Origin: Naegleria gruberi
Taxonomy: Eukaryota
DNA length: 64,000 bases
Reading direction: 5' to 3' (one strand)
Assembly (NCBI GenBank): GCA_000004985.1
Contig: GG738846.1
Part shown: positions 41,328 through 56,997 of the stretch, in pieces
Numbering within the stretch: position 1 is the stretch's first letter
How the letters are laid out: each line of letters starts with the position of its first letter
Made by a program: the position numbers and the translations under genes
The notes under the pieces: model-generated
Told to the model about the DNA's origin: nothing
Databases searched by the model: none
The model's input: only the letters and a program-made list of their open reading frames with translations

Positions 41328-43548
41328 TTAGTGTTCGGTTGTAATATTAATAATACTGGAGAGTCTTTCAAAAGAAGTCTTGACAAGTAAAAGTTGTGAA
41401 TGACATTGTTGAAGGCTGGTCAATTGTTGTTTATCCTCATCTGAAATATAGTCGTGTGTTGGATCTTCATCGTCATCCATAAAGTTTTCAACCCTACTCA
41501 AAAGATTACTTGCTATAGAGCATAAAATATCTTGTAAACCAATAAACTTGTTCATGATAATGAGCATTTGTTCAACTTGGAGTCGTGTATTGACTTGAGT
41601 CTTTGCAAGGAAGGCCTTTTCAGCAATGCCAGTAAGGAAAGCGTAATGGGCAGCATTTAATTGATCCAAGTCCCCATCATTATCTCTCAAGTATTTGACA
41701 TCATGAATGAATTTATCCCAAGCACACTCCATTACTTCAAACATTAAATAGAATTGTAAACTCTTCAAAAATCTACTCATATCATGTCTCAATAGAATTG
41801 AAAAGTTCAAGGCATTTGATAATTGAGAAAGAACAGTAGTCTTCTTTCTGGGAATGGAACGAATGAGTTGGACAACCTTTTTCCAATTTTCATTGAGTGA
41901 TAGTTCTACTCGCTTAATATTCCACAAGAATTTAAATATCTTGTGGTAAACCTTCATAATAGGCTTTGCTAGTATTGTATCCAATGGAACTGTAATCTTA
42001 TAATCCAGATAGAAAACATCCCATCCATTTACATCGCTAGAATTTGTATTAGAATTTGATTTACCTTCAACCTTTAGTGCAACATCCAATCTATTTAGAA
42101 CATCTTGCTCATCGAATTGGGCATTTGAACCTCTGATTGCACTCTCTAGCAGACCAAGAAGGTCATGTTTGAAAATTGCATTGGAAGGCTTTTTCAAATC
42201 ATTGCTGTTATCAGTAATGTAAGATACATTATTCGTGAAAAACTTACTTTAGCAATTCAATTAAATGTTGAATAAAATCACCCTGGCCAAGTAAAAGATA
42301 TTGTTTGATGGCATGACAATGAAGTAAAAACTTGAATTGATCAAGCATTAAGTCGATTACTCTCTTGTTGGCAACTTTTGCTACACAATCAACAACATTT
42401 TCCAACTTGGAAATATTGTGGAATCCCAGTCCATCTGTAGATGACTTGGTTGATGAATCCATTGCCCATTCAGCATCTTTACAACATTGTCTGATAAAGT
42501 TAATGGTTTTACCAGTTCTCAAAATTTTTTCTGCCAATTGCTTGTCAATATAGAGAGGGACCATATCAACATCTATACTATATTTCAGTGCCCACAGTTT
42601 ATCAATGCCAATATTCGGGTTTGACTTGATAAAGAACTCTGCGTAAGGATCTTCTAATTCTCCATCAATAACCCAAGATTTTAACATTCTAAATATTGGA
42701 GAAGAGGTATGATCTAGAATTCTAACAAATAATTGTTGAACTAGTGGATCTCCATGTTTAAGGAAAGTGAAAATAGTGGAGATCAATATGCCCCCCTTTT
42801 TAAATTTACAAGAATCTGCCAATACAGCCAAATTTTTCATAATCTCTGTTGGTTCAATAGCCCATACAGCCAATCTTCTGAAAGTCACGGGTGTATTGGT
42901 ATTCTCTTGACTTTCAATATGTGTTTCGAGTGTAGATATTGTTTTGTAATAATCCACAAGTTCCTTGTCGATGGCTGCACATAAACTCTGCACAATCAAT
43001 CCATTTGAGGTGATATTCAATGTTCCAGAATCCACAAAACTTTTTACCTTTTTGTAGAGCCAACCTAATTCTGACAACTTGCTCATTAGTAGTCGAGTAG
43101 ATTTTGGTATTCCAATTTTTGTATCTACAATATATCGTTCGCTTCCAATATCAAATTTAATGTACTTTCCATCAATTCCTTGAAAGGTGTAAATGATGTC
43201 TCTTACCAGTACAGATTCGGCAATTTCAAATTTTGTATTTTCTTGCTCACTGTACGATTGTCTGTATTGTTCAAATGTTGATGATTTAGGCCTAATTTCC
43301 TGTGATTGAAGCATTCTTGGATTTTCTTGCCTTTGTGGTGTGGTAGAGTTGAGTTTGAATAAATTGTCTTGGAATGTCATATTTAAGGATGACACAGAAT
43401 TATCTTGTTGTAAATTGAAAATTCCTAGAGAATTGAGTAAATATACTAGATTGAATTTGTTTTGAATTACAGTTTTTGAATTGAGTTTGTGATATAATTG
43501 TGAGAATTGAAAAATTGTATCCGATTTGTTTTCTCTTGCAACTATCAA
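41328..43548 (-). CDS. Gamma-tubulin complex component (GCP/Spc97-Spc98 family), two exons.
   Basis: N-terminal GRIP1 region: ESVLVRDIIYTFQGIDGKYIKFD...LMSKLSELGWLYKKVKSF. C-terminal GRIP2 region: ECAWDKFIHDVKYLRDNDGDLDQLNAAHYAFLTGIAEKAFL. ORFs 42244..43548 and 41328..42197 are separated by a 46-nt intron-sized gap. Confidence 0.75.
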
Positions 43549-48133: not shown

Positions 48134-50976
48134 TTAATTGTTATTCAACCCTCTTTGTGAAAAGTAGTGATGTTTTAAAATAGAGCCAGCATCTGGTCGT
48201 CTTTCTGGATCCTTCTCCAACATGCTAAACACCAACTCCACCAACTCTAATGAATAGATCTGTAAACTAATCTTCTCCTTTAATATTTGTTTGACAGTTT
48301 CAGAATCCTTTAACATGTACATTTGATTGATGGAAGTTGTTGTATCATGAGATAGAATCTGGTATAGAGTAACTCCCAAACTGAATATATCAGTTTTATG
48401 ATCACATGAAATTCCACACAACAATTCTGGTGAAATATACAATGGAGTTCCAGCTAATGAAAAACTGGTTGATTGTTTTGAGTTTTTTGCCAAACCAAAA
48501 TCAGCAATGATAATGTCAATGGCTGAATCATTCATTTTCTGAATGAAAATATTGGAAGGTTTAATATCTCTGTGAATAACTCTGATTTAGTGTTAAATCC
48601 ACATATTTTAATATGTTTCTAAACTTACCCAAAGTTGATGAAAATATAATCCAAGGCACTACATGATTGAAATAATATTTGAGCAATTAAAAGTTCTGAA
48701 CAAAATTTGGATCCAGTAATGAGTCTATTCAAATCACCCATCTCATAATAAGTCATATCAATACATAGAATTTGACCATTTCCAATAAAGAAATCATTCA
48801 CTTTGAGAACATTTGGGTGATTCATCTTTAAAAGTTGAATTCCTTCTCTCATAGCCACGTTCAAATCTTCATGGTTATCAAATCTAACCACTTTGATTGC
48901 TTTGACTTCATTATTACATTTAGTGTCATTCACTTTAAACACACTTCCACCTTGTCCAATCTTTACCAAATTTGTATATCTATCCATTGGATCATTTTGA
49001 GATTCTTTTGAAGATGAAGTATATTGAGAAGGGAAATCAGAAATCATTGTTGATTGTGTGAATGATTTTAATTCTTCTTCCGAAGGATTCACCGTATCAA
49101 TGTTCAAAGTTGCTTCCTTTGCTCTATTTCTATTAATTAACACAATAATGATAATTACAAAAATTACAATGATTAAAATTACAATAAATAGGGTTGGAAC
49201 AAGTACTGCAACTAGTATAGTTGTTTGATCAGATTGAGCACTAAGATTTGTTCCATTATTTTGCTTATTAATTGCTGAGCAATCCTTATTATAAGTTGTT
49301 ACATCTGATGTTGGACATGTACAAGTGTCAGGAGCTGTACATTCACCAATACTTGAACAAACCAGTCTACTACTAGAAGAAACTCCAAAACAATTAAATG
49401 TTTCACAATCAGCTCCACTATAACCTGTCTGACATGAACAATTGTTTGGTGCAATGCAATTTCCTTTTGAGGAACATACGTTTACATCTGTTTTGAGTAT
49501 ATTATTACATTTAAACATGCTACATGTGGAATTTAGATATCCACTATTACAAGTACATTCATCTTTGGCAGTACATTTACCAAAACCTGAACAAACATTT
49601 GGTTGACTATTTGATATTCCAAAACATGAATATTCCTGACAATACGACCCATTATAATGATCTTGACATGAACAAGCATTATATGCATAACAAAATCCAT
49701 GTGAAGAACAAACACCTGAACTGTCATATCTTACTCCATTGCAATTAAATAAATTACAACTAGTTCCATATCCAAAATATCCTTCAAAACAATTACAATC
49801 ACTTCCTGATTGAGTAGAATTTAAAGGACATGGTACAATTTTTCTAATATAATTATAATTAGTGTCTGCAATAAATATTTCACCCAATTGATTGATTGAA
49901 ACTCCATGAGGTGATAAATTTGTAGAATTTCCCAATAAACCATCCCCATTGAAAAGTTGATTTCCTGTTCCAGCAAATGTTGAAATAATTCCACTTGTTG
50001 AAATCTTTCTAACTCTGAAATTGACTGAATCTGCAAAAAATACTTCACCCAATTGATTTACTGTAATTCCTCTAGGTGAAAATATCTTTGCCATTGTTCC
50101 TAATATTCCATCTCCATTGTAACCATTTGAACCTATTCCAGCAATTGTGGTAATCGTACCATTTGTCAATATTTTACGAATTCTAGAATGAGAGAGAACT
50201 GAAATGTATACTTGACCTATTTGGTCAACTGCAACACCTGTAGGAGAACAAATATTTGCATTAGTTGCTAAAATACCATCTCCATTAAAATCACATGATC
50301 CTGTTCCAGCAATTGTTGTAATGGTACCATTTGTCAAAATTTTACGAATTCTATTATTTCCAGTATCTTTCCAAATTTAACAGTTAAAAGTTCAACAATA
50401 ATACCTACCTGCAATTATAACTTCTCCCAATTGACTAATAGCAACTGCATTTGGATTTTTAACATTGGCACTTGTTGACGGAATAAAATCACCATTATAG
50501 GCTCCATCTCCAACACTAGTCCCAGCAATTGTTGTTATGGTACCATTTGTCAATATTTTACGAATCCTATTTCCAAATTCAGCAATAATAATTTCACTCA
50601 GTTGACTAACAGCAATATCATAGGGATAGTAAAGTTGGGCATTGGTAGCTAGTATGTTATCACCATTATATCCAGCAGTACCAGTTCCAGCAATTGTTGT
50701 TATTGTGCCATTAGTTAAAATCTTTCGAATACGATGATTGCTCGTATCTGATATCAGAATCTCCCCAGTTGATTCGAGAAAGGCAACAGATGAAGGTGAA
50801 TTTAGAGTTGCAGATGATGCCAACATGTAATCTCCATTGTAAACACTTGAACCCGTTCCAGCAATTACTTTCAAATAGTTTCCAACTCCAAAAGTTGTTT
50901 GTTGTGCTGTGCTTGTTTCAACAACCAACCATGCAGAAAGTAGAAGCAAGCACATGTAAATGATTTGTCGAAACAT
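48134..50976 (-). CDS. Receptor-like protein kinase, three exons. Signal peptide, NHL-type beta-propeller repeats, EGF-like Cys repeats, one TM segment and a cytoplasmic Ser/Thr(-Tyr) kinase domain.
   Basis: Exon 1 is 50976..~50382 (MFRQIIYMCLLLLSAWLVVETSTAQQ...). Repeated (R)IRKI(L)TNGTITTIAGTG..YNGDG units resemble NHL repeats. Intron ~50338-50381. Exon 2 has ~8 CxCxxG EGF-like repeats, the TM segment ILVAVLVPTLFIVILIIVIFVIIIIVLI and kinase subdomains (VKIGQGGSVFKV, AIKVV). Intron ~48560-48623 (GTAAGTTTAG...AAATCAG). Exon 3 has HRDIKPSNIF, DFGLAK and GTPLYISPE. Confidence 0.8.
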
Positions 50977-51865: not shown

Positions 51866-53839
51866 ATGAAACCAACAACAGAAGCATCATCTTTTCGAAA
51901 CAATAGAAATCGTTCCTCAACTCTTCCTATGAGGTTGTCAAAGAATATGGCTATTGAAAATATCAATCAGTCAATAAAACAATCATTTAGAAATTCAAAA
52001 ACCACAGTTGACCTAAATGAAAGTCAAGGAAGTATGATTATAAAAGATAGAATTTCTTTCTCTAGAAGTAGGCGTTCAAGCACAGCATCAGGTTCAAAAC
52101 AGCCAACATCACTCTACAAGAGACTCTTATCCAACCTCAAACATGGTGATGATTCCATGTCAGACATTATAAGTGAAACATCATATGACACTTCCATGTC
52201 GGGTTTAGTAACGTCATCTATGGGAATAGGTTTCAGATTAAATGGAGCCAACAACACTCCCACACACAAACAAGAAATATCCGAATTGAATAATTTAGTT
52301 TCTCAATTCATGTGTTGTGGCTTTCCAATTGTGGTTTTTGACAAGAAGGGTTGTATTGTCTATATGAATAGAGAATCAGAGGAAATGTTTGGAACATTTA
52401 GTTTTTCAGTATTGGGTGAAGATTTAGTTGAGGTTTTTATGGAGGACACAATTCTCGATATTCACACGTTAATTGATGATTTTTTAGGATTTTCAATGGA
52501 AGATATTGAAGGAGTTGACAGGAAGAATATCAGTCTCAAGAATATGCCTTATGAATTATTGAGCGAGGAAGATAAATCAAAGAGAAGAAGTCACCTTTCA
52601 AAAGAGAGAATTTTGAAAGGAAAATCAATAACTTTGAATCAATTCTTTACCATCTCAACAAAACTTGTTCCAATTAAGAAGAAACATGAAATTCACTTTT
52701 GTGCCTATATGAAATTTGTTGAATTTATTGATAATGAAGAGTTGAACACAATATATGAGAATTTAGATTCCGTTCATGTACAAATTACAAATGCAAGTAT
52801 TGTTCCAATTGTGGCGATTAATGATAAGGGAAGTGTTTTGGTATTCAATAAGGCTGCCACACTGACATTTGGATATGAAAATAGTGAAATAATTGGAAGA
52901 AATGTCAAAATTATTTGTAATAGAAAAGATAGAATGAATCATGACATGTATTTGGAGAGATTTGCCAAAACTGAAAAGAAGAAAATTCTAGATCGTATTA
53001 AGAAAGTCAAAGGTCAAACAAAAGATGGTAAAAGTATTCCAGTGGAAATCAAAATTTCTCAAATTGTCAAAAATGGTCAATCATTATTTGTTGCCTATTT
53101 CAGAGATTACAAATTATTATCCAATCAAGATGAACAAATGACAGGTATTGCAGAAAAGATTTATCCAAGAAATATTGCAGAAAGATTAAGTATGGGCCAG
53201 AAAATCATTGACCAAGTTGATGGATGTTCCATGTTATATTGTGATTTGGTTGGTTTTACAGAGTTATCATCAACCATGCCACCTAAACAAGTTGTTTCTC
53301 TACTACACTCAATATTTTCAAATTTTGATGAAATTTGTCAAAAGTTCAAGATGGAAAAGATTAAAACAATAGGAGATAGTTACTTTTTAGCTTCTGGTTT
53401 AAGGAATGAAACTAGTTCAGTTGACCATATGATTAAGGGTGGTCTTTTAATGATTACAACAGTGAATCAATTTTCAGAATCGACAGGAAATAGTTTACAA
53501 GTTAGAGTTGGAATTCACACCTCAATAGGAGGTGATGTCATTGCAGCTGTAGTTGGTAAAGTGAAGAGAACGTACGATCTCTTTGGGTCTGATGTTAAAA
53601 TTGCTCAACTAATGGAAATGACTGGAATTACTAATGAATTACACATCTCCAACAATACCTACAAATCCATCAAGAGTGAAAAGAGAAAATCACTCTTTAT
53701 TGAAAAATTCAAAGAGGGAGATGAAATTTTAATGGACAAGTATGCAGAACCATTGCAGATACCGACAAATAGTTGGGTAACACACAATGTGTTAGAATTA
53801 CTCAATAGAGATAAGGAAAAGTCAATTCAACAACAATAA
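51866..53839 (+). CDS. PAS-PAS sensor fused to a class III adenylate/guanylate cyclase domain (657 aa), apparently single exon.
   Basis: After an S/R-rich N-terminus come two PAS/PAC-like modules (VVFDKKGCIVYMNRESEEMFG, PIVAINDKGSVLVFNKAATLTFGYENSEIIGRNVKII...GKSIPVEIKISQI). The CYC domain reads SMLYCDLVGFTELSS...KIKTIGDSYFLASGL...VRVGIHTSIGGDVIAAVVG...YDLFGSDVKIAQLME. A-rich leader, host-like codon usage. Confidence 0.8.
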   Translation: MKPTTEASSFRNNRNRSSTLPMRLSKNMAIENINQSIKQSFRNSKTTVDLNESQGSMIIKDRISFSRSRRSSTASGSKQPTSLYKRLLSNLKHGDDSMSDIISETSYDTSMSGLVTSSMGIGFRLNGANNTPTHKQEISELNNLVSQFMCCGFPIVVFDKKGCIVYMNRESEEMFGTFSFSVLGEDLVEVFMEDTILDIHTLIDDFLGFSMEDIEGVDRKNISLKNMPYELLSEEDKSKRRSHLSKERILKGKSITLNQFFTISTKLVPIKKKHEIHFCAYMKFVEFIDNEELNTIYENLDSVHVQITNASIVPIVAINDKGSVLVFNKAATLTFGYENSEIIGRNVKIICNRKDRMNHDMYLERFAKTEKKKILDRIKKVKGQTKDGKSIPVEIKISQIVKNGQSLFVAYFRDYKLLSNQDEQMTGIAEKIYPRNIAERLSMGQKIIDQVDGCSMLYCDLVGFTELSSTMPPKQVVSLLHSIFSNFDEICQKFKMEKIKTIGDSYFLASGLRNETSSVDHMIKGGLLMITTVNQFSESTGNSLQVRVGIHTSIGGDVIAAVVGKVKRTYDLFGSDVKIAQLMEMTGITNELHISNNTYKSIKSEKRKSLFIEKFKEGDEILMDKYAEPLQIPTNSWVTHNVLELLNRDKEKSIQQQ

Positions 53840-54203: not shown

Positions 54204-55064
54204 ATGGAACAAATCTACGCCAATACCAAAGACTCTCTATTTTGTATTAAACGTTTTCAAGAATTACTAAAAACAAGTTATATAGGACGATCGATCGTGT
54301 ATCGGAATCAAGTGGAAACAACAATGGACATTGGAAGGAGAGAGGCTGAGGAGGGTTGTTTGACTGGAACACTCATCTTGGCAGAGGAACAAACAAAAGG
54401 AAGAGGAAGGAGAGGTAGAGAATGGAGCAGTGCAGGGAAGGGAAAGAATTTGTATTTTACTATTGTATTTCATGTTAGATTGGATAATGCACAGGAATTG
54501 ATAAAACTTAATTTGGCAATTCCTTTGGCAATTACTATTACTTTGAGAGATGAAGGATTGGAAAATTGTGGAATTAAATGGCCAAATGATGTTTGGGTCA
54601 TTCCAAACGAAAAGGATTCACTTCCATCTAAAATTAGTGGAATGTTAATTGATAGTGTACAATCTGGAGAAACTTTATTTGCATTGGCAGGAATTGGAAT
54701 TAATCTCAATAGTTCATTCAAGAGTACATCACTTACCCAAGGTGAAAATGCTCTTCCAAATGTTGCTATTTCATTCCTTGATGCTACCAATAAGAGTGTA
54801 GATAGAGAAAAATTTCTTGCTCAATTGTGTAATACTTTGGAAAACTTATTGGCATTTTCACAAAAGGATGTAATTACTCTGTACAAATCACATGATATTC
54901 TTATTGGAAAGGATATTACCATATCACCATCAGATAAATCACCATCATATACTGCCAAAGCTGTTGGTATTTCCAAGTTTGGTAACTTGATGGTTGAAAT
55001 GAAAGATGGAACAGGTGTCAAGGAAATGATTGCTGAAGAAGTTTCCATTCGACCATTAGAATAA
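54204..55064 (+). CDS. Biotin--protein ligase, BirA type (compact 286 aa, no N-terminal extension).
   Basis: BPL/LPL catalytic-domain signatures are present: QTKGRGRRGREWSSAGKGKNLYFT, IKWPNDVWV and KISGMLID. The C-terminal SH3-like tail is present. It is far shorter than typical eukaryotic holocarboxylase synthetases. Confidence 0.8.
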   Translation: MEQIYANTKDSLFCIKRFQELLKTSYIGRSIVYRNQVETTMDIGRREAEEGCLTGTLILAEEQTKGRGRRGREWSSAGKGKNLYFTIVFHVRLDNAQELIKLNLAIPLAITITLRDEGLENCGIKWPNDVWVIPNEKDSLPSKISGMLIDSVQSGETLFALAGIGINLNSSFKSTSLTQGENALPNVAISFLDATNKSVDREKFLAQLCNTLENLLAFSQKDVITLYKSHDILIGKDITISPSDKSPSYTAKAVGISKFGNLMVEMKDGTGVKEMIAEEVSIRPLE

Positions 55065-56601: not shown

Positions 56602-56997
56602 ATGATGAGAAATAACAAGAGTTTGCGTTCAAAACTCTTTTCCGGAGCCAAATATGATGAAGAATATGGTGGATCCTATTTACCTACTACAAATAATTCT
56701 CAAACACAATTGTTAATAGATAAGGCAGAGGATGATATTGACCAAAAAGCAGGAGTGATGGTGAAGGGAGTTAGAGTTTTAAAGGAAATTGCCATGACAA
56801 TGGGAGCGGAATTGGATGAACAAAATGCCTATATGAAATCCATTAATGCAGATGCCAGCAATACAAAGACTATGCTTGATAATACCTTGATGAGGTTGAA
56901 ATTACTCACTCAAAGGAGACATGGAATGCTTGGAATGTATTGTCTATTAATTGGATTTGTTTTATTTGTACTGCTTGTGTTATACACTTGGATTTAA
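56602..56997 (+). CDS. Bet1-like Qc-SNARE (tail-anchored).
   Basis: 131 aa. A SNARE heptad region (DDIDQKAGVMVKGVRVLKEIAMTMGAELDEQNAYMKSINADASNTKTML) is followed by the C-terminal TM anchor LGMYCLLIGFVLFVLLVLYTWI. Confidence 0.6.
   Translation: MMRNNKSLRSKLFSGAKYDEEYGGSYLPTTNNSQTQLLIDKAEDDIDQKAGVMVKGVRVLKEIAMTMGAELDEQNAYMKSINADASNTKTMLDNTLMRLKLLTQRRHGMLGMYCLLIGFVLFVLLVLYTWI

What the first reader, a model, noticed from the sequence alone, without database searches (positions are those of the whole stretch)
51866..53839. PAS-PAS sensor directly fused to a class III nucleotidyl cyclase domain in a compact 657-aa, intron-less, bacterial-style architecture.
Tandem PAS/PAC modules followed by a CYC domain (F(A/C)D..GFT, the TIGD metal-binding Asp, the arginine/transition-state region VGIHTSIGG...YDLFGSDV) is the typical architecture of bacterial and cyanobacterial signal-regulated adenylate/guanylate cyclases. 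The cyclases usually described from social amoebae are much larger multi-domain proteins. The A-rich Kozak context and N/S-rich N-terminus indicate the gene is native rather than a contaminant. Substrate specificity (ATP versus GTP) depends on residues in the ...GDSYFLASG... and ...HTSIGGDV... blocks and could be informative. It sits in a 5 kb run of bacterial-like single-exon genes (cyclase, BirA-type ligase, thiolase).
Basis: partly seen in the sequence, partly recalled or inferred. Interest (0 to 1): 0.65.

Follow-up and report, generated by a model that had tools for sequence, protein, structure and literature searches.

The report
Naegleria heme-PAS sensor with half-cyclase domain
This is a native gene of the amoeboflagellate Naegleria gruberi (not a social amoeba) that joins a probable heme-based gas sensor of the bacterial FixL type to an adenylate-cyclase domain lacking two catalytic residues, so it probably needs a partner subunit to make cAMP.

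Summary
Window 51866-53839(+) is one 657-aa ORF with two PAS domains and a class III cyclase domain, all statistically solid.

- **Organism.** The protein is identical to Naegleria gruberi XP_002682694.1 (NAEGRDRAFT_61949), so this is a heterolobosean, not a social amoeba.
- **Family.** Full-length homologues with the same architecture were identified by name only in Naegleria: at least 5 in N. gruberi, 2 in N. fowleri and 2 in N. lovaniensis. The gene belongs to a lineage-typical family and is not an isolated bacterial-style oddity.
- **PAS-B.** It is a FixL/DosP-type PAS domain with the proximal heme histidine (His359), so it is a candidate O2/NO/CO sensor.
- **Cyclase domain.** It keeps both metal aspartates and the ATP-type Lys/Asp pair. 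It lacks the NxxxR transition-state motif (Lys578, Leu582), as does every named Naegleria homologue. It scores better against the C1 half of mammalian adenylate cyclases and against sGC alpha than against C2 or sGC beta.

Best reading: a heme-PAS-gated adenylate-cyclase subunit that needs a partner carrying NxxxR, as sGC alpha and chytrid NeoR do. No partner was found, and neither heme binding nor catalysis has been tested. I rate it a new variant of a known kind, of moderate interest.

The parts
51866..53839 (+). Complete single-exon CDS, 657 aa. Identical to N. gruberi NAEGRDRAFT_61949 (XP_002682694.1 / EFC49950.1 / D2UZI5_NAEGR).
51866..52261 (+). N-terminal region, residues 1-132. Predicted disordered, Ser/Asn/Thr/Arg-rich, variable in length among paralogues.
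   Evidence: pLDDT below 50; composition; alignment A2
52265..52717 (+). PAS-A, residues 134-284. A divergent PAS fold with an insertion of about 40 aa after the F helix and a conserved CGFP motif. No cofactor can be assigned.
   Evidence: Pfam PAS_4/PAS_8 partial hits above cutoff; AF2 secondary structure; family alignment
52733..53113 (+). PAS-B, residues 290-416. FixL/DosP-type PAS domain and candidate heme sensor.
   Evidence: Pfam E 3e-17; NCBIfam FixL and DosP models; PDB FixL heme domain 1d06 E 1e-17, DosP 1e-10, alignment to B. japonicum FixL without gaps
52940..52942 (+). His359 codon (CAT). Aligns with the histidine I recall as the proximal heme ligand, His200 of B. japonicum FixL, on the F-alpha helix. 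Arg365 (52958-52960) aligns with FixL Arg206. Lys379 (53000-53002) aligns with the distal Arg220.
   Evidence: H359 and D360 invariant in A2; helix 353-369
53114..53206 (+). Helical linker with a cyclase-transducer-like element (GIAEKIYPRNIAERL), residues 417-447.
   Evidence: aligns with the LLLNILPxxIAERL segment of bacterial relatives; helices 421-432 and 435-442; family comparison
53207..53785 (+). Class III nucleotidyl cyclase catalytic domain, residues 448-640. Metal Asp460 and Asp504, Lys500 and Asp571 (ATP type) and Arg547 are all retained.
   Evidence: Pfam E 2e-41; residue mapping
53597..53611 (+). Position of the canonical NxxxR transition-state motif, here K578-I-A-Q-L582, so both Asn and Arg are missing.
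   Evidence: 142 of 185 cyclase domains in the comparison set have the full canonical residue set, while all named Naegleria family members lack Asn and Arg

Best explanation
The gene encodes a soluble, native Naegleria gruberi sensor-cyclase subunit. From N to C terminus it has a disordered Ser/Asn-rich region, a divergent PAS-A, a FixL/DosP-type PAS-B, a short helical transducer element and a class III cyclase domain.

Shown here: the domains, the organism, the Naegleria family, retention of His359, and retention of both metal aspartates and the Lys/Asp ATP-specifying pair together with loss of the NxxxR motif.

Inferred: (a) PAS-B binds heme through His359 and senses a diatomic gas (O2, NO or CO) or redox state. 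(b) The signal passes through the linker helix to the cyclase dimer interface, as in FixL, DosP and sGC. (c) Because the domain has the residue pattern of the C1 half of mammalian adenylate cyclases, of sGC alpha and of chytrid NeoR, a homodimer would have two defective sites. The protein would therefore work as the metal-donating half of a heterodimer, with another Naegleria cyclase supplying Lys/Asp/Asn/Arg. That would give one active cAMP-forming site and one degenerate, possibly regulatory, site.
For: Identity and family: exact match to N. gruberi. Full-length homologues at 39-52% identity with the same architecture in N. gruberi, N. fowleri and N. lovaniensis.

Heme-PAS: the only solved relatives of PAS-B with E below 1e-8 are the heme domains of FixL and DosP, and the alignment to B. 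japonicum FixL has no gaps (31/101 identical). NCBIfam's best full-protein models are FixL and DosP. The His column is H in 876 of 889 PAS-B-like domains recovered, and in every family member. Xing et al. [quoted passage not shown] His359 lies on the predicted F-alpha helix.

C1-like cyclase: the residue pattern is D-K-D-R-D-K-L against the canonical D-K-D-R-D-N-R. All named Naegleria members lack Asn and Arg but keep the other five residues, apart from one more degenerate N. lovaniensis protein. HMMER scores are higher for the N/R-lacking halves: AC9 C1 90.7 bits against C2 50.5, AC8 C1 75.5 against C2 53.6, sGC alpha1 100.6 against beta1 49.3. In two-domain protist cyclases among the hits, the best-matching domain is always the one lacking N/R. 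The top fold matches are sGC alpha chains, DosP and the FixL PAS-A/PAS-B dimer.

Precedent: NeoR lacks NxxxR, is inactive alone and is active as a heterodimer (PMC12264004).
Against: - No partner was identified. There is no other cyclase in the 64-kb window, and every family member I could inspect is also N/R-less.
- The N. gruberi proteome could not be searched as such.
- The distal residue that binds O2 in FixL (Arg220) is Lys in this protein, though it is Arg in most relatives.
- Heme binding cannot be read from sequence with certainty. About 40% of FixL-cluster PAS domains lack the His and do something else (PMC10468136), and some His-bearing domains may also not bind heme.
- The AF2 model has only moderate overall confidence (pLDDT 71, pTM 0.40) and rests on a 16-row alignment.
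- Restoring N and R in NeoR did not restore its activity, so the motif alone does not settle catalytic competence either way.
Confidence: 0.55

Rival explanations
1. An active homodimeric adenylate cyclase that catalyses without the canonical Asn/Arg, for example using Lys578 or other basic residues. It would be regulated directly by the PAS domains, like bacterial PAS-cyclases.
For: Both metal Asp, Lys500/Asp571 and Arg547 are strictly kept across the family, which argues for a nucleotide-binding and metal-binding role under selection. The closest non-Naegleria cyclase domains are homodimer-type bacterial enzymes at 38-45% identity. The window protein has a basic residue (Lys) at the Asn position.
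Against: The residue at the Asn position is not conserved in the family (K, E, T, A, L, S) and the Arg position is L, M, S or I, so no substitute catalytic residue is conserved there. The NxxxR motif is described as highly conserved in active sites of class III cyclases and absent precisely from the non-catalytic halves of heterodimers (PMC12264004). The C-terminal part of the domain is also divergent: the Pfam match stops at about 157-162 of 183 profile positions, whereas canonical relatives reach 180.
Confidence: 0.22
2. A pseudo-cyclase. The catalytic domain no longer makes cyclic nucleotide in any complex, and serves as a dimerisation or nucleotide-binding module for a PAS-based sensor or scaffold.
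For: NxxxR is lost in every Naegleria member. One N. lovaniensis paralogue (P0185) has also lost a metal Asp and the beta4 Arg (E-K-D-K-D-E-I). P0002 has the two PAS domains but no recognisable cyclase domain in its gene model.
Against: Five of the seven key residues are retained in nearly all members across species that share only about 40% identity overall. That is the pattern of C1/alpha-type halves that still contribute to catalysis, not of free decay.
Confidence: 0.15
3. One reading: an unusual bacterial-style cyclase in a social amoeba, possibly part of a block of bacterial-like (transferred) genes.
For: The domain combination is common in bacteria. The nearest non-Naegleria relatives of the cyclase domain are cyanobacterial and verrucomicrobial proteins. 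PAS domains in eukaryotes are argued to derive from bacteria (PMC10468136).
Against: The organism is N. gruberi. The family is shared by three Naegleria species, with a canonical relative in Percolomonas. Composition equals that of the genome. The thiolase neighbour appears eukaryote-like, judging from my recollection of which organisms its best-matching solved structures come from. Any bacterial ancestry is therefore ancient, not a local island.
Confidence: 0.05

Closest known systems
FixL (rhizobial O2 sensor kinase) and DosP/EcDOS (E. coli O2-sensing c-di-GMP phosphodiesterase) heme-PAS domains
   Same: PAS-B aligns to B. japonicum FixL without gaps and shares the HD(x)Y..R segment, including the proximal His and the Arg206 equivalent. 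It also keeps hydrophobic residues at the positions of Ile215, Leu236 and Ile238. The tandem PAS-A/PAS-B layout matches the FixL PAS dimer structure 8js5.
   Different: The output is a class III cyclase rather than a histidine kinase or an EAL domain. The distal Arg220 equivalent is Lys here. The host is a eukaryote. Heme binding is untested.
Soluble guanylate cyclase alpha subunit (animal NO receptor)
   Same: PAS, helical linker and cyclase domain in one chain. The cyclase domain keeps the metal Asp residues but lacks NxxxR. sGC alpha gives the best whole-chain fold matches and a much better sequence score than the beta subunit.
   Different: The specificity residues are of ATP type (Lys/Asp). 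The heme would sit in a FixL-type PAS, not in an H-NOX domain on the partner subunit. The linker is shorter. No partner is known.
C1 half of mammalian membrane adenylate cyclases (AC9, AC8, AC5)
   Same: Best-scoring solved relatives of the cyclase domain. The same 'A(N/Q)LME' replacement of 'ASRME' is present, and both metal Asp residues are retained.
   Different: It is a single-domain soluble protein with its own sensor domains, so any C2-like half must come from a separate gene.
Neorhodopsin (NeoR) / RGC heterodimers of chytrid fungi
   Same: A single-domain sensor-cyclase of a microbial eukaryote lacking NxxxR (T455/K459). It is inactive alone and active only with a partner that has the motif (PMC12264004).
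   Different: A rhodopsin light sensor and GTP specificity. The partner genes are clustered in the chytrid genome, whereas there is no cyclase neighbour here.
Globin-coupled oxygen-sensing adenylate cyclases of trypanosomatids (HemAC-Lm / OAC)
   Same: A heme sensor fused to an adenylate cyclase domain in a member of Discoba (PMC7719234).
   Different: A globin fold rather than a PAS fold. It is a different cyclase lineage, related to the receptor adenylate cyclases.
NgPAC1-4, BLUF-cyclase photoreceptors of N. gruberi
   Same: Same organism and the same design principle: a small bacterial-type sensor domain fused to a soluble cyclase. Their light-regulated adenylyl cyclase activity has been shown experimentally (PMC5608697).
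   Different: A BLUF flavin sensor. Their catalytic residues were not examined here.

Membership tests
Class III nucleotidyl cyclase (Pfam PF00211) | Catalytic-domain fold and profile match | tested here: met
   E 2e-41, 142 bits against a cutoff of 21.9. Fold matches to GC-A, Rv1625c and AC9 cyclase domains, with target-normalised TM-score 0.75-0.8 for the isolated cyclase-domain entries.
Class III nucleotidyl cyclase (catalytically complete homodimer type) | Two metal-binding Asp | tested here: met
   Asp460 and Asp504.
Class III nucleotidyl cyclase (catalytically complete homodimer type) | Substrate-specifying pair: Lys/Asp for ATP, Glu/Cys for GTP | tested here: met
   Lys500 and Asp571, so ATP type. 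The UniProt name 'Guanylate cyclase' given to the N. fowleri homologues probably just follows the name of the Pfam family.
Class III nucleotidyl cyclase (catalytically complete homodimer type) | Transition-state NxxxR motif | tested here: not met
   Lys578 and Leu582. The motif is absent from all named Naegleria homologues, while 142 of 185 comparison domains carry the complete canonical residue set.
Class III cyclases with a cyclase-transducer element | Conserved helical segment of about 19 aa immediately N-terminal to the catalytic domain. The definition is recalled from the literature (Ziegler et al. 2017) and was not read here. | tested here: inconclusive
   IAEKIYPRNIAERL aligns with LLLNILPxxIAERL of bacterial relatives and is predicted helical. 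The LLxN half is not conserved.
FixL/DosP-type heme-PAS (cluster 3 of Xing et al. 2023) | PAS fold with specific sequence similarity to FixL/DosP heme domains | tested here: met
   1d06 E 1e-17, DosP E 1e-10; the next, non-heme PAS hit is at E 0.003. NCBIfam FixL and DosP models.
FixL/DosP-type heme-PAS (cluster 3 of Xing et al. 2023) | Proximal histidine on the F-alpha helix | tested here: met
   His359 aligns with the histidine of the FixL HD(x)Y segment, lies in predicted helix 353-369, and is invariant in alignment A2.
FixL/DosP-type heme-PAS (cluster 3 of Xing et al. 2023) | Distal Arg that contacts bound O2 (B. japonicum FixL Arg220; role recalled from the literature) | tested here: inconclusive
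   Lys379 in this protein. Arg in most paralogues and in 665 of 889 related domains.
FixL/DosP-type heme-PAS (cluster 3 of Xing et al. 2023) | Actual heme b binding and a ligand-dependent switch | not testable with these tools
   Needs spectroscopy of the recombinant protein.
Heterodimeric (C1/alpha/NeoR-type) cyclase half | Metal Asp residues retained and NxxxR lost | tested here: met
   Higher scores to C1 and sGC alpha than to C2 and sGC beta.
Heterodimeric (C1/alpha/NeoR-type) cyclase half | Existence of a complementary partner carrying NxxxR | not tested
   None in the window. The N. gruberi proteome was not searchable. Canonical relatives with the same linker type exist in Percolomonas and in unnamed eukaryotic contigs.
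Dictyostelid (social amoeba) cyclases | Encoded in an amoebozoan genome | tested here: not met
   Exact match of four consecutive ORFs to the collection; three of them (cyclase, ligase, thiolase) are named N. gruberi proteins, the fourth carries no name.

The most novel reading that the evidence does not exclude
Naegleria may carry a FixL-type, heme-PAS-gated adenylate cyclase built as a heterodimer. This family would be the sensor-bearing, metal-donating 'alpha' half, and a second cyclase would supply NxxxR. That would be a protist counterpart of soluble guanylate cyclase, assembled from a bacterial O2-sensor module instead of H-NOX. It would link O2 (or NO/CO) directly to cAMP in an organism reported to have both aerobic and anaerobic metabolism (my recollection of the genome paper, which was not held in the library).
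Probability: 0.3. Interest if true: 0.7.

Novelty: new variant of a known kind. Interest (0 to 1): 0.45.

Why it matters
No paper in the searched library describes a FixL-type heme-PAS domain coupled to a class III cyclase, or any heme-PAS sensor in Naegleria. If heme binding and gas regulation are confirmed, this would add a further design of heme-regulated cyclase, beside H-NOX/sGC and the globin-coupled Leishmania enzyme. It would also give a concrete candidate for oxygen sensing in heteroloboseans, a group that includes the pathogen N. fowleri, which has two named homologues.

The family-wide loss of NxxxR in a single-domain sensor-cyclase is a second example, after chytrid NeoR, suggesting that obligate heterodimeric cyclases may arise repeatedly in microbial eukaryotes. 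A practical point: the database name 'Guanylate cyclase' on the N. fowleri homologues is probably wrong about substrate (Lys/Asp indicates ATP), and 'cyclase' may overstate what the protein can do on its own.

Tried and rejected
- **Social-amoeba origin.** Rejected by the exact match to N. gruberi.
- **Recent bacterial transfer or contamination.** Rejected. Composition equals that of the window, the flanking genes are eukaryotic with introns, and the family is present in three Naegleria species.
- **Guanylate cyclase.** Rejected on the Lys500/Asp571 pair.
- **Word-indexed protein search with the PAS-A/PAS-B region.** It returned nothing although paralogues exist, which is a prefilter artefact.
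- **Word-indexed search with the full protein.** It missed the self-hit because its 90% cluster is represented by a 57-aa fragment.
- **Looking up the paralogue loci.** The loci of P0001 and P0002 are not on record, so I could not check whether P0002, whose model is fused to a cellulase domain, hides a cyclase exon or a partner gene.
- **Searching for a second cyclase or PAS gene in the window.** A six-frame HMM scan found none.
- **The N. gruberi genome paper (Fritz-Laylin 2010).** It is not held in the library. My recollection that it reports more than 100 cyclases is therefore unverified; PMC9928731 gives at least 81 for the genus.
- **Distance tree of cyclase domains.** It shows a tight Naegleria cluster, but beyond that a plateau of equally distant bacterial and protist domains, so it cannot establish an origin.
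Full report
**1. What is at the coordinates**

Window 51866..53839 (+) is a single ORF of 657 aa, from ATG to TAA.
- Pfam finds a class III cyclase domain at residues 450-605 (E 2e-41).
- It finds a strong PAS domain at 306-414 (E 3e-17).
- It finds a weaker, partial PAS match at about 153-201 that still passes the gathering thresholds of PAS_4 and PAS_8.

An AlphaFold2 model was built on a 16-sequence family alignment (mean pLDDT 71, pTM 0.40).
- Residues 1-132 are disordered.
- Residues 134-284 form a complete PAS fold with an insertion of about 40 residues after the F helix (PAS-A).
- Residues 290-416 form a second PAS (PAS-B).
- Two short helices (421-442) follow, and then a cyclase fold (448-640).

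**2. Whose gene it is**

An exact-sequence look-up shows that the ORF is N. gruberi XP_002682694.1 / EFC49950.1 (NAEGRDRAFT_61949, 'predicted protein').
- The next two ORFs are the adjacent N. gruberi proteins EFC49951 and EFC49952, on a scaffold of 1,001,995 bp.
- The window is therefore heterolobosean nuclear DNA, not social-amoeba DNA.
- The gene's GC content (32.4%) equals that of the window (33.3%).
- Neighbouring genes are ordinary eukaryotic ones. They include a gamma-tubulin complex component and an NHL/EGF/transmembrane/kinase receptor, both split across ORFs.
- The thiolase scores best against acetyl-CoA acetyltransferase structures. From memory, the top entry (6aqp, 375 bits) is fungal and 2f2s is the human mitochondrial enzyme; classic bacterial biosynthetic thiolase entries score about 247 bits.
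- The ligase is a short BirA-like biotin-protein ligase.
- The idea of a local block of bacterial-like genes is not supported.

**3. The family**

An exhaustive HMMER search of 1.84 billion representatives, followed by name look-ups, identified by name full-length homologues with the same N-terminal tail, PAS-A, PAS-B and cyclase order only in Naegleria.
- N. gruberi: P0001, NAEGRDRAFT_50144, 72607 and 48447, plus P0002, whose gene model is fused to a cellulase.
- N. fowleri: FDP41_004160 and FDP41_011737.
- N. lovaniensis: C9374_009276 and C9374_000900.

These share 39-52% identity with the window protein, and Pfam confirms the same domain architecture for P0001, P0186, P0187 and P0189.

A second, shorter group has one or two PAS domains of the same type and a cyclase domain with the same distinctive linker ('I(F/Y)P..I(A/S).R').
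- One member clusters with a Percolomonas cosmopolitus (Heterolobosea) transcript.
- Others lie on eukaryotic metagenome contigs.

Published surveys report at least 81 cyclases across Naegleria and four BLUF-cyclase genes in N. gruberi whose products show light-regulated cyclase activity (PMC9928731, PMC5608697). A compact sensor-cyclase fusion is therefore typical of this organism rather than exceptional.

**4. PAS-B is a FixL/DosP-type domain**

NCBIfam places PAS-B best on the FixL and DosP models.
- Against all solved structures, the only hits with E below 1e-8 are the heme domains of FixL (1d06, E 1e-17) and DosP/EcDOS (E 1e-10).
- The next hit scores only E 0.003.
- The alignment to B. 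japonicum FixL over 101 residues has no gaps and 31 identities.

Using my recollection of B. japonicum FixL numbering:
- His359 aligns with the proximal ligand His200.
- Arg365 aligns with Arg206.
- Lys379 aligns with the distal Arg220. That position is Arg in most paralogues.

Across 889 PAS-B-like domains recovered from the hit set, the histidine column is H in 876. It is invariant in the family alignment and sits on the predicted F-alpha helix. Xing et al. [quoted passage not shown]

Heme binding is therefore a well-founded inference, but it is not shown. I found no paper in the library describing a heme-PAS cyclase, or any FixL-like sensor, in Naegleria.

**5. The cyclase domain is a 'half' domain**

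I aligned 185 cyclase domains from the hit set to a profile.
- 142 show the full canonical set: metal Asp, Lys, metal Asp, beta4 Arg, Asp, Asn, Arg.
- The window protein has D460, K500, D504, R547 and D571, but K578 and L582 in place of Asn and Arg.
- Every named Naegleria homologue also lacks both. The Asn position is K, E, T, A, L or S, and the Arg position is L, M, S or I.
- Those homologues keep the other five residues, except one more degenerate N. lovaniensis protein.

The bacterial relatives closest to the domain (38-45% identity; Symploca, Verrucomicrobia) all read GDTVNxASRMES where this protein reads GSDVKIAQLMEM.

Lys500/Asp571 indicate ATP rather than GTP as substrate.

The domain scores consistently higher against the N/R-lacking halves of known heterodimers:
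- AC9 C1 90.7 bits against C2 50.5.
- AC8 C1 75.5 against C2 53.6.
- sGC alpha1 100.6 against beta1 49.3.

In two-domain protist cyclases in the hit list, its best match is always the N/R-lacking domain. Whole-model fold search returns sGC alpha chains first, then DosP and the FixL PAS-A/PAS-B dimer.

The NxxxR motif is reported as highly conserved in active class III sites and as absent from the non-catalytic half of heterodimers. Chytrid NeoR, which lacks it, is inactive alone and active with RGC1 or RGC2 (PMC12264004).

**6. Most likely mechanism**

*Shown:* domain order, key residues, family distribution.

*Inferred:*
- Heme on His359 senses O2, NO, CO or redox state.
- The conformational change is passed through the PAS-B C-terminal helix and the transducer-like element to the cyclase dimer.
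- Because a homodimer would carry two sites without NxxxR, the protein most likely pairs with another Naegleria cyclase that supplies Lys/Asp/Asn/Arg. This protein would supply the metal aspartates, giving one catalytic and one degenerate site.

I could not identify the partner.
- The window holds no other cyclase.
- All family members I could inspect are N/R-less.
- The N. gruberi gene loci were not retrievable.

Rival readings remain open. They are an unconventional active homodimer, and a pseudo-cyclase that only dimerises or binds nucleotide.

**7. Verdict**

The host assignment, the 'unusual for this organism' argument and the transition-state assignment are wrong.

Two points from this analysis carry the interest. 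One is a FixL-type, probably heme-binding PAS domain fused to a cyclase in a eukaryote. The other is a loss of NxxxR across all named family members, which makes the protein resemble sGC alpha or NeoR. Both are sequence-based predictions on an uncharacterised 'predicted protein'. I rate it a new variant of a known kind, with interest 0.45.

Noticed in passing
Proteins P0140-P0183 (not in the window); P0171 is Bodo saltans CUG33156.1: The highest-scoring database hits to PAS-B are giant proteins of 1,100-5,500 aa containing 8-13 or more tandem FixL-like PAS domains. Nearly all of these domains keep the proximal-His position. The five I scanned with Pfam have no recognisable output domain. The only one with a name is from Bodo saltans, annotated 'methyl-accepting chemotaxis protein, putative'. 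These look like poly-heme-PAS proteins, and their function is unclear.
   Followed up: partly
window 53450-53839 and 54204-55064: A 129-aa N. gruberi entry (NAEGRDRAFT_76633, P0020) is 100% identical to residues 529-657 of the cyclase but sits on a separate 8,656-bp contig. The neighbouring ligase also has two accessions (EFC35709.1 and EFC49951.1). This region is probably duplicated on a small redundant scaffold or haplotig in the assembly.
   Followed up: no
window 48625-50976 (-): Two adjacent ORFs encode a signal-peptide-like start with NHL repeats, then NHL repeats, teneurin-like EGF repeats, a transmembrane segment and the N-lobe of a protein kinase. This looks like an intron-containing receptor kinase whose kinase domain continues beyond 48625.
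   Followed up: partly
window 41328-43548 (-): A gamma-tubulin complex component is split over two ORFs: GCP N-terminal domain at 42244-43548 and C-terminal domain at 41328-42197. This implies a short intron or a frameshift.
   Followed up: no
window 56602-56997 (+): A 131-aa ORF with a hydrophobic C-terminal tail (tail-anchored, SNARE-like in appearance) has no Pfam hit. In the protein collection it is recorded only from an ENA contig, not among the named N. gruberi proteins, so it may be an unannotated gene.
   Followed up: no
L001 536-6056 (eukaryotic metagenome contig ERZ26692762): Two PAS-PAS-cyclase genes lie in tandem next to RasGEF genes, and both lack NxxxR (patterns D-K-D-R-D-E-E and D-K-D-R-D-I-E). 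The N/R-less sensor-cyclase type therefore also occurs in an unidentified eukaryote.
   Followed up: partly
It is probably a mis-joined model, or a paralogue that lost its cyclase domain. The locus could not be retrieved.
   Followed up: partly
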